Position numbers and translations under genes: made by a program. Under the pieces are notes generated by a model. That model ran no database searches. It was not told where the DNA came from and saw nothing but the letters and a program-made list of their open reading frames with translations. Shown here piece after piece: positions 2,629 through 15,733 of a stretch of DNA of 16,355 bases (position 1 is the stretch's first letter; every line of letters starts with the position of its first letter). Source of the stretch: a virus; UHGV virus genome UHGV-1564085. One strand, written 5' to 3'.

Positions 2629-3201
2629 TCATAATTCTGTGCTGGTGGCAGGAATTAATTTCTGCCAGATAGCGGAAACATATTTTGCCTGATGACGGGC
2701 ATCAGCCAGGGCGTTGTGCCGTTCGCCATCGAAAGGCATGTCCATTTTGGGGTCGAATCCGATGGAACGCCCAAGCGTAACGATCGTGCGTACATCGTGG
2801 TCATTCCAGTATGCCCACGGGCAGATTTGTCCTGCTCGCTCATAAGCTCCACGTAAAATTACGTTGTCGAAGGTGGCTCCGTTACCCCAGACTTTTAAAT
2901 ATTTCGTATTGTCTGCGTGCCGGTTAATGAAATGATTTAGTTCTGAGAGAGCATCGCTGATCGACAAAGTATCATCAATACAGATTGCAGCTCGTGCTTC
3001 AGGGCTTTGTTTCAACCACCACAGGATGGTATCGCCGTCAGGTGTAGCTCCTTGCCCCATAGCACTTTCCAGGCTAACAACCGTATAGAATTCTTGTCCG
3101 ATGTCTCCGGTTTCTGGAGTGAAGAACACCGCGCCAATGGAAACGATCGGTGCATCCTTATTTTTCCCCATCGTCTCAAGGTCGATCATTAAGTTGTTCA
3201 T
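2629..3201 (-). CDS. DEDDh (DnaQ-like) 3'-5' exonuclease
   Basis: ORF track 191 aa; motifs DLET near the N-terminus and HNALADA near the C-terminus fit Exo I and Exo III of DEDDh nucleases; real start likely the ATG at 3201 with GAGGTG upstream, overlapping the upstream stop. Confidence 0.6.
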   Translation of the reverse strand: MNNLMIDLETMGKNKDAPIVSIGAVFFTPETGDIGQEFYTVVSLESAMGQGATPDGDTILWWLKQSPEARAAICIDDTLSISDALSELNHFINRHADNTKYLKVWGNGATFDNVILRGAYERAGQICPWAYWNDHDVRTIVTLGRSIGFDPKMDMPFDGERHNALADARHQAKYVSAIWQKLIPATSTEL

Positions 3202-10284: not shown

Positions 10285-10775
10285 TCATGAGTCTGTTAAA
10301 TGACGTTCAGAAATTCATTGAAGCCCATCCGGGGTGTACTTCCGGAGACATTGCGGATGCTTTTGCAGGTTACTCACGGCAGCGCGTTCTGCAGTCAGCA
10401 AGCAAGTTACGTCAGAGTGGGCGTGTGGCTCACCGTTGTGAAGGAGATACACGCAGACATTTCCCACGCCTGACTGAGAGAGCGCAGGAGCCGGAACCAC
10501 AACCAGTTCGTGAAACCAGACCTGTGCGCAATTTCTATGTCGGCACTAACGATCCCCGGGTGATTTTGTGCCTGACCCGCCAGGCGGAAGAATTGGAGTC
10601 CAGGGGCTTATACCGTCGTGCTGCAACGGTGTGGATGGCGGCATTCCGTGAAAGCCACTCCCAGCCAGAACGAAACAATTTTCTGGCGCGTCGTGAGCAG
10701 TGTTTACGGAAAAGCAGCAAGCGCGCTGTATCGGGTGATGAGTGGTATCTGTCAGGGAATTACGTGGGGGCTTAA
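10281..10775 (+). CDS. Hypothetical protein with a C-terminal PerC-like motif (LESRGLYRRAATVWMAA)
   Basis: ORF track 164 aa; start overlaps the O-like stop; motif resembles the PerC/Pch family as I recall it. Confidence 0.4.
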   Translation: MIMSLLNDVQKFIEAHPGCTSGDIADAFAGYSRQRVLQSASKLRQSGRVAHRCEGDTRRHFPRLTERAQEPEPQPVRETRPVRNFYVGTNDPRVILCLTRQAEELESRGLYRRAATVWMAAFRESHSQPERNNFLARREQCLRKSSKRAVSGDEWYLSGNYVGA

Positions 10776-11428
10776 TGAGTAATAAATATTGCCAGGAGCT
10801 GGTGGAACTGCGGAACAAACCAGCCCATGAACTGAAGGAAGTGGGTGATCAGTGGCGCACGCCGGACAACATTTTCTGGGGAATTAACACCCTGTTTGGC
10901 CCGTTTGTTCTGGATCTGTTCACTGACGGTGATAACGCCAAATGTGCTGCGTATTACACGGCGGAAGACAACGCGCTGGCGCATGACTGGTCAGAACGTC
11001 TTGCGGAGCTTAAAGGGGCTGCCTTTGGTAATCCCCCATACAGCCGCGCCAGTCAGCATGAGGGGCAATACATCACCGGCATGCGTTACATCATGAAACA
11101 TGCCAGTGCCATGCGTGATAAGGGTGGGCGCTATGTTTTCCTGATCAAAGCTGCCACCAGCGAAGTGTGGTGGCCGGAAGATGCGGACCATATTGCTTTT
11201 ATTCGCGGGCGTATTGGTTTTGAACTGCCTGCCTGGTTTATCCCGAAGGATGAGAAGCAGGTGCCGACAGGCGCTTTCTTCGCTGGTGCTATTGCTGTTT
11301 TCGATAAGACCTGGAAGGGACCGGCAATCAGCTACATCGGGCGCGATGAACTTGAGGCATGTGGTGAGGCGTTTCTGGCGCAGGTTCGCCAGCAGGCGGA
11401 AAAACTGGTCAGGGAGATGGCGGCATGA
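10775..11428 (+). CDS. Phage Dam-family DNA N6-adenine methyltransferase
   Basis: NPPY catalytic motif (GNPPYSR); the ATG at 10775 overlaps the upstream TAA and follows a G-rich Shine-Dalgarno (track ORF starts earlier at 10742). Confidence 0.65.
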   Translation: MSNKYCQELVELRNKPAHELKEVGDQWRTPDNIFWGINTLFGPFVLDLFTDGDNAKCAAYYTAEDNALAHDWSERLAELKGAAFGNPPYSRASQHEGQYITGMRYIMKHASAMRDKGGRYVFLIKAATSEVWWPEDADHIAFIRGRIGFELPAWFIPKDEKQVPTGAFFAGAIAVFDKTWKGPAISYIGRDELEACGEAFLAQVRQQAEKLVREMAA

Positions 11429-13976: not shown

Positions 13977-14729
13977 ATGAACCTTGAAGCCTTACCAAAA
14001 TATTACTCCCCAAAATCTCCAAAATTGAGCGATGACGCACCGGCGACAGGCTCAGGTGGTTTAACGATTACGGATGTGATGGCTGCGCAGGGGATGGTGC
14101 AGTCGAAAGCACCGCTTGGGTTTGCCTTATTCCTGGCAAAAGTTGGTGTTCAGGATCCTCAATTTGCGATTGAAGGTCTGCTCAATTACGCGATGGCACT
14201 GGATAACCCGACATTGAACAAATTGAGTGAAGAAACCCGGTTACAGATCATCCCTTACCTTGTGAATTTTGCCTTTGCTGATTATTCCAGGTCTGCGGCA
14301 AGTAAGGCTCGCTGTGAGCATTGTGCTGGTACTGGATTTCATAATGTATTGCGCGAAGTGGTGAAACACTCCAGAAGCGGGGAATCTGTTATCAAGGAAG
14401 AGTGGGTGAAGGAACTATGTCAGCATTGTCATGGTAAGGGAGAAGTCAGCACAGCGTGCAGAGGGTGTAAGGGTAAAGGTATTGTCCTGGATGAAAAAAG
14501 GACCCGGCTTCATGGCACGCCTGTTTATAAGATTTGTGGGCGTTGCAATGGAAATCGGTTTAGCCGTTTACCAACCACACTGGCGCGGCATCATGTCCAG
14601 AAGCTGGTACCAGACCTGACGGATTATCAGTGGTACAAAGGATATGCAGATGTCATTGATAAACTGGTGACAAAGTGCTGGCAGGAAGAAGCATATGCTG
14701 AGGCGCAATTAAGAAAAGTGACGAGATAA
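13977..14729 (+). CDS. Q: Late antiterminator, lambda Q family (longer than lambda Q)
   Basis: Shared motifs with lambda Q as I recall it: SPKSP, TDVMAA, ADYSRSAA, C..C.GTG zinc motif, CGRC.G; lies directly upstream of a pR'-like promoter and the lysis genes. Confidence 0.65.
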   Translation: MNLEALPKYYSPKSPKLSDDAPATGSGGLTITDVMAAQGMVQSKAPLGFALFLAKVGVQDPQFAIEGLLNYAMALDNPTLNKLSEETRLQIIPYLVNFAFADYSRSAASKARCEHCAGTGFHNVLREVVKHSRSGESVIKEEWVKELCQHCHGKGEVSTACRGCKGKGIVLDEKRTRLHGTPVYKICGRCNGNRFSRLPTTLARHHVQKLVPDLTDYQWYKGYADVIDKLVTKCWQEEAYAEAQLRKVTR

Positions 14730-14760
14730 ATGATTTTCGCCGAAGATGGCGACATGATTC

Positions 14761-14789
14761 TTGCATTTTTCAAAAAATTTGGTTAGGAT
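14761..14789 (+). promoter_or_regulatory. pR'-like late promoter with Q-utilisation region
   Basis: TTGCAT (14761..14766), 17-bp spacer, TAGGAT (14784..14789); downstream AACGATGGG matches the start of the lambda pR' transcript as I remember it. Confidence 0.5.
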
Positions 14790-14836
14790 TCTCCTAACGA
14801 TGGGCTTTGTGTGTCTACCGTTGATAATCTTCAAGA

Positions 14837-14858
14837 AACCGCCACCGAGCGGTTTTTT
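14837..14858 (+). terminator. tR'-like intrinsic terminator ending a ~60-nt leader RNA from pR'
   Basis: aaccgc (14837..14842), 6-nt loop, gcggtt (14849..14854), T-run 14853..14858. Confidence 0.6.
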
Positions 14859-15017
14859 ATTGATGTCAATTGTGTTTTTAAGGCTCTCCTTCCTTAAAGT
14901 GTGTTGTACAAAAAACTGGCAGCCAGCTACGCTCATTTTGAAAAAGTGACACCCTTCAATGTTTCTTTTGAATGGAATTGCTACCCATAAATCTCTATCA
15001 AAAACAGGAGAGCATAT

Positions 15018-15260
15018 ATGGTGGATCGTTGTTCTGTTTGTGAGCAGTCATTAAGTTATTCACGAGAAGTTGAACAAGATGGCGTTGAATATAAATCTTG
15101 CCCAAAATGTTCTGCTGATGCCGGAGTGCACGTTTTTTATAAAACAATAGACTTTGGTTATAGGGATATGGGAGACGGAAGGCATATCGTTCAGTCATGG
15201 TGTCCGGCTTGTCGTTCTGGTGAAAAACCTTCTATACCACCAGCATTTAAATGTTGTTAA
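15018..15260 (+). CDS. Small Cys-rich putative zinc-ribbon protein (80 aa); late-region moron between Q and the lysis genes
   Basis: ORF track; CAGGAGAG Shine-Dalgarno upstream; Cys pairs C5/C8, C28/C31, C62/C65 and terminal CC; flanked by terminators. Confidence 0.5.
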   Translation: MVDRCSVCEQSLSYSREVEQDGVEYKSCPKCSADAGVHVFYKTIDFGYRDMGDGRHIVQSWCPACRSGEKPSIPPAFKCC

Positions 15261-15279
15261 CTCAATGAATTATAAAAAG

Positions 15280-15304
15280 AGGCTGCCTGTGGGCGGCCTT
15301 TTTT
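15280..15304 (+). terminator. Rho-independent terminator after the Cys-rich moron
   Basis: aggctgcc (15280..15287), loop tgtg, ggcggcct (15292..15299, one mismatch), T-run 15299..15304. Confidence 0.55.
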
Positions 15305-15391
15305 GTGCACTACGCAACTTTTGCGACTCAGCGCTATAACCAGCTTCTTTCCCTTCACTCGTTGCACTTCCGATAACCGGAGGTGGGAATT

Positions 15392-15733
15392 ATGAAAATG
15401 CATAACGATCCTCATTCCTGGTCTGACTTACTTGAATTGTTACAGAGCTGGTGGCGTGGAGACACACCGCTGGGCGCAGTAATTATGTCGATCGTTATGG
15501 CTGGCTTGCGCATTGCCTATTTTGGCGGTGGTGGTGGCTGGAAGCGAAAAACGCTCGAGATTTTGCTCTGCGGCGCTCTGACGCTGACTTTTGCATCCGC
15601 TCTTGAGTATGTCGGATGGCCTAAATCGCTTTCTGTTGCCATTGGTGGTGGTGTTGGGTTGATCGGTGTCGATGCTATTCGTGGGGCTGCAATGAGAGTA
15701 ATCGGTAACAAGTTCGGTGGCTCTAAGGAGTAA
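15392..15733 (+). CDS. Holin, lambda S-like class I with a Met-Lys-Met dual-start motif
   Basis: GGAGGT 9 nt upstream of the ATG at 15392 (track ORF starts at GTG 15383); three predicted hydrophobic segments; MKM start as in lambda S107/S105. Confidence 0.65.
   Translation: MKMHNDPHSWSDLLELLQSWWRGDTPLGAVIMSIVMAGLRIAYFGGGGGWKRKTLEILLCGALTLTFASALEYVGWPKSLSVAIGGGVGLIGVDAIRGAAMRVIGNKFGGSKE

What the first reader, a model, noticed from the sequence alone, without database searches (positions are those of the whole stretch)
15018..15304. Cys-rich small protein inserted between the Q-dependent late promoter and the holin (stx-equivalent moron locus)
Seen: an 80-aa ORF with a good Shine-Dalgarno and Cys pairs C5/C8, C28/C31, C62/C65 plus terminal CC, bracketed by terminators at 14837..14858 and 15280..15304 and lying between Q and the holin. 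Established: this position downstream of pR' carries accessory genes in other lambdoid prophages (Shiga toxin genes, tRNAs) expressed on induction. Inference: a late-expressed accessory zinc-ribbon protein of unknown function; no clear independent promoter was found upstream.
Basis: partly seen in the sequence, partly recalled or inferred. Interest (0 to 1): 0.55.

Follow-up and report, generated by a model that had tools for sequence, protein, structure and literature searches.

The report
Zinc-ribbon cargo gene upstream of holin
A real, conserved 80-residue zinc-binding protein gene sits as a promoterless cassette between the late promoter and the lysis genes of an E. coli prophage. Its relatives are built into GATC-type restriction-modification operons and nucleases, which points to a role in DNA-methylation conflicts rather than a housekeeping phage job.

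Summary
The ORF at 15018-15260 (80 aa, AGGAG Shine-Dalgarno, Cys pairs) lies between a lambda-type Q gene and a lambda-S-type holin. It is bracketed by two hairpin/U-tract terminators. The gene is real: dN/dS is 0.04-0.17, it matches phrog_7682 over its full length, and the AF2 model has pLDDT 83.

The late promoter can be placed precisely. TTGCAT-17-TAGGAT-6 nt-AACGATGGG copies the lambda pR' layout.

The cargo slot is 14859-15379. SfV carries a DNA methylase there, and Stx1a phages carry stx1AB behind the element that precedes this ORF in relatives with the other Q type. In 57 of 59 IMG/VR contigs the ORF lies directly upstream of lysis genes. It is always on the late strand and nearly always has its own terminator.

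The function can be narrowed. The protein is a stand-alone two-zinc domain that no Pfam model describes. Its core is homologous (hhalign 98.9%) to 59-aa proteins embedded in DpnII-type operons (Dam-class methylase, DpnII nuclease, N6_N4 methylase). The domain is also fused to McrA-like HNH and PD-T4-1-like nucleases and to DpdB. In prophages it often abuts orphan methylases.

The best reading is a late-expressed, methylation-linked nucleic-acid-binding accessory or counter-restriction factor. The mechanism is unproven.

The parts
13977..14729 (+). Antiterminator Q, lambda-Q family with a DnaJ-like CXXC zinc module
   Evidence: PF03589 9.5e-54 and phrog_127 6e-109. Annotated as 'antitermination protein' in NZ_AP022098.1.
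14761..14789 (+). Candidate late promoter pR': -35 TTGCAT (14761-14766), 17-nt spacer, -10 TAGGAT (14784-14789)
   Evidence: Same spacing as lambda pR' TTGACT-17-TAAATT, read from NC_001416. This stretch travels with Q: it is 89-97% identical in SfV and Salmonella phage 118970_sal3.
14796..14804 (+). AACGATGGG, 6 nt after the -10. Predicted +1 (14796) and sigma-70-dependent pause / Q-loading element
   Evidence: An identical 9-mer sits at the identical distance from the -10 in lambda pR'. Its role in lambda is established knowledge and was not tested here.
14833..14861 (+). First intrinsic terminator (tR'). The predicted unantiterminated RNA is about 65 nt
   Evidence: Hairpin plus T6, -11.8 kcal/mol. 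The homologous site is annotated as a terminator in SfV U82619.2.
14859..15379 (+). Variable cargo slot between tR' and the holin ribosome-binding site
   Evidence: Homology to SfV stops at 14858 and resumes at 15380. GC is 0.37-0.44 here, against 0.45-0.54 in the flanks.
15006..15010 (+). Shine-Dalgarno AGGAG, and the 5' edge of the portable cassette
   Evidence: (A)AGGAG is conserved in all aligned relatives.
15018..15260 (+). 80-aa two-zinc ribbon protein (phrog_7682; RefSeq hypothetical WP_089438607.1)
15275..15306 (+). Second intrinsic terminator, and the 3' edge of the cassette
   Evidence: -19.2 kcal/mol hairpin plus T5. A terminator within about 50 nt of the stop codon is found in 21 of 25 related prophage loci.
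15392..15733 (+). Lambda-S-family holin with an M-K-M dual start; first lysis gene
   Evidence: PF05106 and TIGR01594. RefSeq start taken.
10742..11428 (+). Phage N6-adenine DNA methyltransferase of the same prophage. Listed as context only; a possible functional partner
   Evidence: RefSeq 'phage N-6-adenine-methyltransferase'. phmmer match to the PF05869-type seed.

Best explanation
The ORF is a genuine protein-coding cargo cassette (Shine-Dalgarno, ORF, terminator; 15006-15304). It sits in the leader of the late operon of an SfV-like prophage integrated at dusA.

Expression (inferred). Transcription comes from pR' (+1 at about 14796). Without Q it stops at tR' (14833-14861). With Q-modified RNA polymerase it reads through tR', the ORF and the ORF's own terminator into the holin. 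The protein would therefore be made at the start of the late phase, ahead of the lysis and head/tail genes.

Fold (inferred). The protein folds into a small beta-rich domain held by two zinc sites. The universal core site is Cys4: C28, C31, C62, C65. The accessory site is C5, C8, H38 plus C79.

Function (inferred). The most likely function is sequence-specific or methylation-state-specific nucleic-acid binding in the adenine-methylation/restriction arena. The same domain occurs in three other settings:
- as a 59-aa gene inside DpnII-type (GATC) restriction-modification operons;
- as the last gene of Dam-class methylase plus putative nuclease operons;
- as the N-terminal module of McrA-like HNH nucleases, a PD-T4-1-like nuclease and DpdB.

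I propose the phage copy is a captured stand-alone version of this module. It would work as a controller-like or adaptor DNA binder during late replication and packaging, modulating methylation of progeny DNA or access of restriction nucleases to it.

Shown here: gene reality, position, cassette boundaries, promoter architecture, homology and gene neighbourhoods. Inferred: zinc-site assignment, Q dependence, nucleic-acid binding and the biological role.
For: Gene reality:
- dN/dS is 0.04-0.17 with saturated dS.
- Full-length match to phrog_7682 at 2.5e-59.
- AF2 model with pLDDT 83.4 and pTM 0.70.

Late-operon placement:
- The pR' layout is identical to lambda's.
- Both terminators fold as hairpin plus U-tract.
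- The break-points against SfV are at 14858 and 15380.
- In IMG/VR contigs, Q is upstream in 54/59 and lysis genes are downstream in 57/59, across two Q families and at least three holin families.
- The ORF is always on the late strand, whereas defence-like cargo in the same interval is on the opposite strand.

Zinc sites, from 172 family members:
- C28, C31, C62 and C65 are 93-99% conserved.
- H38 is present when C5/C8 are present and is replaced when they are absent.

Link to methylation and restriction:
- hhalign of A1 against the short family A8 gives probability 98.9%, E 1.4e-17, 48% identity over residues 24-70.
- All 7 newly fetched loci of the short family are DpnII operons containing a D12 methylase, the ZnR gene, sometimes PDDEXK_11, a DpnII nuclease and an N6_N4 methylase.
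- 12 of 19 distant loci from genome contigs have a D12 and/or N6_N4 methylase as a flanking gene. These include six [D12][DUF6996-6997-7226][ZnR] operons and one [D12][ZnR-HNH fusion][N6_N4] operon.
- Fusion partners are HNH (McrA-like, 6ghc), NOV_C/PD-T4-1 (1.6e-25), DpdB/DndB and HTH_3.
- Seven of 25 related prophage loci, and about nine IMG/VR loci, have an orphan DNA methylase as the immediate same-strand neighbour. One of them also has a Tad2-like anti-defence gene upstream.
- The window prophage itself encodes an N6-adenine methylase.
Against: - There is no expression or biochemical evidence of any kind.
- In the window the ORF has no adjacent methylase or nuclease.
- Nine Photorhabdus species keep a copy at a chromosomal site with no methylase nearby (RidA-like ... 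ZnR ... SMR pair).
- The two DUF3553-ZnR loci examined have no methylase neighbours.
- Adjacency to methylases in prophages may only reflect stacking of independent cassettes in one hotspot. The ZnR keeps its own terminator, and the N6_N4 methylase has its own conserved leader.
- The protein is not basic (about 10 K/R against 11 D/E, counted from the sequence).
- Why a controller-like protein would be useful late in infection is not explained by the data.
Confidence: 0.45

Rival explanations
1. Protein-level anti-restriction decoy. The stand-alone domain mimics the N-terminal module of ZnR-HNH or ZnR-PD-(D/E)xK nucleases, or the ZnR partner of DpnII-type nucleases. It would poison them by competing for their partner surface or their DNA sites.
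For: - The domain is fused to nucleases of defence type.
- Late-strand cargo in this slot includes other counter-defence items: orphan methylases and a Tad2-like gene.
- Counter-defence genes placed on the late transcript opposite a defence gene have a precedent in Tai/Ati (PMC11364771).
Against: - A protein made late in the donor cell cannot protect DNA entering the next host unless it is packaged, and nothing suggests packaging.
- Identity to the fused domains is only about 33-40%.
- No ZnR-nuclease fusion was found in Enterobacterales among the loci fetched.
- The Photorhabdus chromosomal copies are hard to explain this way.
Confidence: 0.18
2. Com-like RNA-binding translational regulator. 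Like Mu Com, which opens an mRNA hairpin to allow translation of the DNA-modification gene mom, the zinc ribbon would bind the leader of a downstream gene (a methylase in some phages, the holin here) and tune its translation.
For: - It is a small zinc-ribbon gene directly upstream of DNA-modification genes on a late transcript in several loci.
- JGI labels a DUF3553-ZnR relative 'phage FluMu protein Com'.
- The N-terminal C-x2-C...C-P-x-C aligns with Com's four zinc ligands.
Against: - Similarity to Com is not significant: BLASTP E 0.095, hhalign probability 4%.
- The Com Pfam model was not hit at E<=1.
- The ORF is separated from the next gene by its own terminator.
- The downstream gene differs between loci (three holin families, methylases).
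Confidence: 0.12
3. Lysogenic-conversion or defence moron. The gene would be expressed in the lysogen, either from a weak own promoter or, in relatives, from a constitutive pR' with no terminator before the ORF. It would benefit the host, for example by excluding other phages.
For: - A strong terminator follows the ORF in 21/25 loci, as needed if it is transcribed when the holin must stay silent.
- In most relatives no terminator is detected in the 330 nt upstream.
- A TGnTA motif about 35 nt before the ATG is conserved.
- Photorhabdus keeps chromosomal copies.
- The interval is a defence hotspot.
Against: - In the window a terminator (tR') does precede the ORF.
- The conserved motif is degraded here (TACCCA) and never has the -7 T of a -10 hexamer.
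- No sigma-70 match was found on the + strand.
- There is no PADLOC hit.
- A lone 80-aa binding domain has no effector.
Confidence: 0.1
4. Lysis-timing regulator acting on the adjacent holin or endolysin.
For: The ORF is immediately upstream of the lysis cassette in 57/59 viral contigs.
Against: - The partners are three unrelated holin families.
- In several loci a methylase or toxin cassette lies between the ORF and the holin.
- Homologues occur in restriction-modification operons and at Photorhabdus chromosomal sites that have no lysis genes.
- The protein has no membrane segment.
Confidence: 0.04

Closest known systems
Morons in the Q-to-S late leader of lambdoid phages (stx1/stx2, tRNAs, the SfV orf47/orf48 methylase, csp genes of Qin)
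   Same: Same slot, downstream of pR'/tR' and upstream of the holin. Present or absent between otherwise near-identical phages. Lower GC than the flanks. Ends with its own terminator. Read by Q-modified polymerase.
   Different: It encodes neither a toxin nor a known conversion factor. No own promoter was found, whereas stx1 has a Fur-regulated one. Unlike most morons, it keeps this one position across two Q families and at least three holin families.
Short (59-61 aa) zinc-ribbon ORFs inside DpnII-type GATC restriction-modification operons (unnamed, unannotated; alignment A8)
   Same: Homologous core CP-x-C ... FG(Y)RDMGDGR-I-x-QS(W/Y)C-x2-CR. hhalign probability 98.9%, 48% identity over residues 24-70.
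   Different: The window protein has an extra N-terminal C-x2-C strand pair plus H38 and C79, forming a second zinc site. It lies in a prophage late operon with no nuclease or methylase next to it.
N-terminal domain of McrA-like HNH nucleases, PD-T4-1-like nucleases and DpdB (fusion proteins P0073, P0086, P0089, P0119, P0122, P0128, P0141, P0080)
   Same: The same domain, with both zinc sites in most members.
   Different: The window protein is stand-alone with no catalytic domain. Its loop is FGYRDMGDGR instead of the longer FG-TT-x-R...P-x-G-x-QS loop of the fusions.
Mu Com (62-aa zinc-ribbon translational activator of mom)
   Same: A small Cys4 ribbon protein encoded on a late transcript next to DNA-modification genes in some loci, with similar spacing of the first two Cys pairs.
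   Different: No significant sequence similarity. It has a second zinc site and a conserved C-terminal half that Com lacks. RNA binding has not been shown.
Controller (C) proteins of type II restriction-modification systems
   Same: The short homologues are small genes embedded in restriction-modification operons, sometimes as the first gene. One relative is fused to an HTH_3 domain.
   Different: C proteins are helix-turn-helix proteins, whereas this is a zinc ribbon with no HTH. No operator has been defined.

Membership tests
Late-operon moron of lambdoid phages (stx-equivalent slot) | Lies between the Q-dependent late promoter/terminator and the lysis cassette | tested here: met
   The order along the window is Q 13977-14729, pR' 14761-14804, tR' 14833-14861, ORF 15018-15260, holin from 15392.
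Late-operon moron of lambdoid phages (stx-equivalent slot) | Present or absent between phages that share the flanks | tested here: met
   SfV shares both flanks but carries other cargo. In E. coli, 364 records match part of the region but only 24 of 5426 genomes hold the ORF.
Late-operon moron of lambdoid phages (stx-equivalent slot) | Own promoter and own terminator (classical moron definition) | tested here: inconclusive
   The terminator is present. No canonical promoter was found; the best candidate is GTGACA-16-TTGAAT, which lacks the -11 A.
Late-operon moron of lambdoid phages (stx-equivalent slot) | Transcribed under Q antitermination after induction | not testable with these tools
   This needs RNA-seq or reporter assays.
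phrog_7682 (PHROGs, unknown function) | Full-length profile match | tested here: met
   E 2.5e-59, residues 1-80 matching profile positions 1-80 of 80.
Curated zinc-ribbon families (Pfam Zn_ribbon_TFIIB, Zn_ribbon_8; NCBIfam FmdB CxxC_CxxC_SSSS) | Score above the curated cut-off | tested here: not met
   14.9 bits against a cut-off of 22; 12.9 against 34.4; 19.5 against 31.3.
Zinc-binding ribbon (generic) | Four conserved metal ligands in two knuckles | tested here: met
   C28, C31, C62 and C65 are conserved in 93-99% of 172 relatives. Metal binding itself was not tested.
ZnR accessory of DpnII-type restriction-modification operons (unnamed family, A8) | Homologous core domain | tested here: met
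   hhalign probability 98.9%, E 1.4e-17.
ZnR accessory of DpnII-type restriction-modification operons (unnamed family, A8) | Encoded within an operon with a D12 methylase, a nuclease and an N6_N4 methylase | tested here: not met
   The window neighbours are Q and the holin. The nearest methylase is 3.6 kb upstream.
Mu Com family | Significant sequence or profile similarity to Com | tested here: not met
   BLASTP E 0.095, hhalign probability 4%. No Pfam Com hit.
Restriction-modification controller (C) proteins | Helix-turn-helix DNA-binding domain | tested here: not met
   There is no HTH family hit. The AF2 model is mostly beta strand with short helices.
Known anti-phage defence proteins (PADLOC-DB) | Match to any defence-system model | tested here: not met
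   0 families at E<=0.01.

The most novel reading that the evidence does not exclude
The family is a previously unrecognised third component of GATC/Dam-class restriction-modification systems. It would be a two-zinc ribbon that reads the target site or its methylation state. It occurs either free, in DpnII-type and DUF6997-type operons, or fused to HNH or PD-(D/E)xK nucleases as their recognition module.

Lambdoid phages of Enterobacterales would have captured it and fixed it as the first gene of the late transcript. There it would act as a counter-restriction or methylation-control device, working together with the orphan methylases that stack in the same slot.
Probability: 0.3. Interest if true: 0.7.

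Novelty: new member of a known kind. Interest (0 to 1): 0.45.

Why it matters
The Q-to-holin leader is where Shiga toxin genes sit, so anything that repeatedly occupies it shows what temperate phages find worth expressing at the onset of lysis.

This cargo is not a toxin. It is a small two-zinc domain with no described function. The same domain is embedded in GATC-type restriction-modification operons and fused to restriction nucleases across several phyla. If it reads DNA methylation state or controls nucleases, it would be a new regulatory or recognition part of very common restriction-modification systems. It would also be a new kind of phage late-phase counter-restriction function.

The case also illustrates a strand rule in this hotspot. 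Defence systems sit on the opposite strand, while methylases, a Tad2-like gene and this ORF sit on the late strand.

If it turns out to be inert, the finding is an ordinary moron of unknown function.

Tried and rejected
- **PDB sequence searches did not identify the domain.** A profile of the family found nothing. A profile of the fusion proteins identified only the McrA-like HNH part.
- **INPHARED phages:** no tblastn match to the protein and no match to the 155-nt leader.
- **Rfam:** only sub-threshold, terminator-driven hits in 14600-15500.
- **Independent promoter:** none on the + strand by the scanner. My relaxed scan found only GTGACA-16-TTGAAT. The conserved TGnTA....T motif is not a proper -10 and is weakest in the window.
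- **Shine-Dalgarno-sequestering hairpin (CTTGCT / AGCAAG) in the leaders.** RNAalifold predicted no consensus structure. My hand-drawn helix is 64% paired with modest covariation and is absent in the window. I rejected it as a feature of this locus.
- **Flanking repeats:** none that would mark an insertion mechanism.
- **A cognate partner among the minus-strand cargo** (as in Tai/Ati). I rejected this because that cargo differs from locus to locus and is absent in the window.
- **DUF3553 (Tudor-like, RNA-polymerase-interacting type; PMC6511836) fusions** suggested a transcription role. The two contexts examined were uninformative.
- **Lambda orf-64,** the positional analogue in lambda, is unrelated.
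- **Literature searches** for the accession, the PHROG, DUF6996/6997/7226 and DpnII plus zinc ribbon found no description of the family.

Full report
**1. What is in the sequence.**
The window carries the right end of the early region and the start of the late region of a lambdoid prophage. The gene order is RusA, KilA-N, DUF968/HNH, Q (13977-14729, PF03589), a 660-bp gap, a lambda-S-family holin (15392-15733), a GH24 endolysin and Rz.

The same DNA is found at 100% identity in E. coli WP4-S18-ESBL-09, in an SfV-like myovirus prophage next to a dusA fragment. There the ORF is annotated as 'hypothetical protein' WP_089438607.1.

The ORF is exactly as described. It spans 15018-15260, starts with ATG and encodes 80 aa. 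AGGAG lies 7 nt upstream. The cysteines are at 5/8, 28/31, 62/65 and 79/80.

Both bracketing terminators are real hairpin-plus-U-tract structures, at -11.8 and -19.2 kcal/mol. The simple consensus scanner missed both.

**2. The gene is real.**
Twenty 90%-identity clusters of 55-97% identity exist, all about 79-80 aa. Sixteen positions are invariant.

Pairwise dN/dS is 0.04-0.17 with synonymous sites near saturation.

The protein matches phrog_7682 (unknown function) end to end at 2.5e-59. AlphaFold2 with the family alignment gives a confident small beta-rich fold, with pLDDT 83.4 and pTM 0.70.

C79 is conserved.

**3. The late promoter and the cargo slot.**
I read lambda itself. Its pR' is TTGACT, 17 nt, TAAATT, 6 nt, AACGATGGG. 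The A of AACGAT is the 6S RNA start, and AACGAT is the sigma-70 pause element at which Q loads (established knowledge).

The window has TTGCAT (14761), 17 nt, TAGGAT (14784-14789), 6 nt, AACGATGGG (14796-14804). The spacings are identical and so is the 9-mer. This places pR' and +1 with good confidence and fits the lambda-type Q.

The first terminator follows about 40 nt later, so the unantiterminated transcript would be about 65 nt.

Compared with SfV, homology is 97.6% through 14858, then breaks and resumes at 15380, just before the holin start. In between, SfV has orf47, an N6_N4 DNA methylase (orf48) and a terminator. The variable slot is therefore 14859-15379.

Homology with diverged copies of the ORF in other phages runs from 15006 (the Shine-Dalgarno) to 15304 (the end of the terminator). 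The portable unit is Shine-Dalgarno, ORF and terminator, with no promoter.

GC drops to 0.37-0.44 in the slot.

Only 24 of 5426 complete E. coli genomes carry the ORF, while 364 records match part of the surrounding stretch.

**4. The position is conserved, and is the stx position.**
I examined 25 prophage-type loci from assemblies and genomes, and 59 IMG/VR contigs. In these the ORF lies on the late strand downstream of Q (54/59) and upstream of lysis genes (57/59).

This holds across two Q families (PF03589, PF06530) and holins of the lambda-S, P21 and holin_8/3_7 types.

In the PF06530-Q phages, one to three minus-strand genes abut the Q stop codon. These include M78+HTH, GmrSD_N+HEPN, RelA_SpoT+NA37 and unknown triplets. 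Next comes a conserved element, CTAACGCGTACGCAAAAACTATCGTAATCTGTTAAGAGTGG, and then the ORF.

The same element occurs in Stx1a-converting phages, after a similar minus-strand triplet and about 500 nt upstream of stx1AB. It also occurs in a Klebsiella phage upstream of the holin. In both it is followed within about 35 nt by a strong terminator. I infer that it is the late-promoter region of that Q type.

In the ORF-bearing relatives, no terminator is detected between this element and the ORF, but one follows the ORF in 21 of 25 loci. In most relatives the ORF may therefore lie inside the promoter-proximal transcript.

The window is the variant in which tR' precedes the ORF. Here expression should depend on Q.

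**5. What the protein is.**
No Pfam or NCBIfam model reaches its cut-off. No solved or viral predicted structure matches.

An exhaustive profile search finds 277 clusters at 50% identity. Across 172 aligned members the signature is K-S-C-P-x-C-S ... F-G-x-R ... Q-S-(W/Y/H)-C-x2-C-R, with C28, C31, C62 and C65 at 93-99%.

C5/C8 and H38 are present or absent together. I read this as a universal Cys4 site plus an accessory C5/C8/H38/C79 site. This is an inference, because I had no access to the model coordinates.

**6. Functional associations.**
- *Fusions.* The domain is N-terminal to McrA-like HNH nucleases (E. coli McrA 6ghc is the only PDB relative of the partner). It is also fused to a NOV_C/PD-T4-1-like nuclease (1.6e-25), C-terminally to DpdB/DndB, to an HTH_3 domain, and, in a large class, to a DUF3553 Tudor-like domain.
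- *Neighbourhoods of distant stand-alone copies.* Twelve of 19 loci have Dam-class (D12) and/or N6_N4 methylases as flanking genes. Six are [D12][DUF6996-6997-7226][ZnR] operons. One is [D12][ZnR-HNH][N6_N4].
- *The 59-61-aa short form.* It has 51 clusters. It lies inside DpnII-type operons in all seven additional loci fetched: D12, ZnR, sometimes PDDEXK_11, DpnII, N6_N4; or ZnR first, then N6_N4, DpnII, D12. The window family and this short family are homologous: hhalign 98.9%, E 1.4e-17, 48% identity over residues 24-70, including the FGYRDMGDGR loop.
- *Prophages.* An orphan methylase (MT-A70, N6_N4 or D12) is the immediate same-strand neighbour in seven of 25 loci and in about nine IMG/VR contigs. 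One locus has Tad2-like, MT-A70, ZnR and holin in a row. The window prophage has its own N6-adenine methylase 3.6 kb upstream.

DNA methylase genes are rare in genomes, so the association in the distant loci is far beyond chance. In prophages it could partly reflect stacking of independent cassettes, because each keeps its own leader or terminator.

**7. Interpretation.**
The safest statement is this. The ORF is a promoterless late-operon cargo cassette encoding a stand-alone member of an undescribed two-zinc domain family. The other contexts of that family are adenine-methylation restriction-modification systems and restriction-type nucleases.

Cargo on the late strand of this hotspot appears to serve the lytic cycle (methylases, a Tad2-like gene). 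Opposite-strand cargo is defence-like. This echoes the Tai/Ati arrangement described for phi80 (PMC11364771).

I therefore favour a nucleic-acid-binding, methylation-linked accessory or counter-restriction role made at the start of the late phase (confidence about 0.45).

The rivals are:
- a protein-level nuclease decoy;
- a Com-like RNA-binding translational regulator, though similarity to Mu Com is not significant;
- a lysogen-expressed conversion or defence gene;
- a lysis-timing factor.

The last is made unlikely by the unrelated holin partners and by copies in restriction-modification operons and at a syntenic chromosomal site in nine Photorhabdus species.

**8. Novelty and score.**

The domain family appears to be undescribed. 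There is no Pfam or PADLOC model and no paper in the searchable library. Its link to DpnII-type systems is the part worth following up.

No experiment supports any mechanism yet, so interest is moderate.

Noticed in passing
L008 (SfV U82619.2) about 2985-3123; also L013 3510-3717, L029 5230-5434, L030 5230-5434: A strongly conserved non-coding leader of about 150 nt (GTGAAAATGGGCGGCTGGTGGGTG...GGTCACAAGCGAACCA.GGCCCACTGCTTTAGCGCAAAAGCA...) precedes the SfV-orf48-type N6_N4 DNA methylase wherever that methylase occupies the Q-to-holin slot. No Rfam family matches it.
   Followed up: partly
L002 4478-5705, L004 3949-5800, L005 3732-5809, L011 1847-3429, L013 905-3049, L014 4232-5758, L018 346-2453: In phages with PF06530-type Q, including Stx1a-converting phages, one to three minus-strand genes abut the Q stop codon. 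They include M78+HTH, GmrSD_N+HEPN, RelA_SpoT+NA37 and unknown three-gene sets of similar sizes. This looks like a defence-island-type hotspot between Q and the presumed late promoter.
   Followed up: partly
window 14796-14804 compared with lambda L060 788-796: The 9-mer AACGATGGG, 6 nt after the -10, is identical to lambda pR'. The sigma-70 pause / Q-loading architecture is thus conserved in this SfV-like prophage, with a much shorter leader RNA (about 65 nt against 194 nt).
   Followed up: yes
window 14914-14928 (minus strand): A terminator-like hairpin with a T-run points leftwards in the leader, but there is no minus-strand gene for it to serve. It may be a remnant of opposite-strand cargo like that seen in relatives.
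   Followed up: no
L031-L037, L039, L043 (Photorhabdus spp.): Nine Photorhabdus species keep a homologue (50-62% identity) at one syntenic chromosomal site. The site has a RidA-like gene (and in several a DinG-like helicase) upstream and two SMR transporter genes downstream, with no Q or lysis genes.
   Followed up: partly
L009 4995-5219 (E. coli plasmid NZ_CP091680.1; also NZ_CP054226.1, NZ_LR882975.1, NC_019092.1): Small mobilizable E. coli plasmids carry an unannotated 74-aa ORF of the short ZnR type (ECPCC...FGFREMSDGRKIPQSYCRKCR), with no methylase annotated on the plasmid.
   Followed up: no
L045, L046, L054, L057, L058, L059: Proteins of about 430 aa with DUF6996-DUF6997-DUF7226 sit between a Dam-class methylase and the ZnR gene. 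In at least L046, L057 and L058 a convergent N6_N4 methylase follows. This is probably an undescribed nuclease of a DpnII-like system.
   Followed up: partly
L028 3574-5225 (Xenorhabdus bharatensis): A Tad2-like/DUF7823 gene, an MT-A70 methylase and the ZnR ORF lie in a row on the late strand just before the holin. This looks like a small counter-defence cluster.
   Followed up: no
leaders of L002, L012-L015, L020, L021, L023, L033, L038 (about 60-70 nt before the ATG): A conserved element GATCTnnnTCAAnGATAT, a partial palindrome that contains a Dam site, and a TTGCTA motif about 35 nt before the ATG recur upstream of the ORF. The window has GTGACACCCTTCAATG and TTGCTA instead. Their role is unknown.
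   Followed up: partly
window 15383-15400: The holin has the lambda-like dual-start motif (GTG GGA ATT ATG AAA ATG, giving M-K-M). This suggests a holin/antiholin pair as in lambda S105/S107.
   Followed up: no
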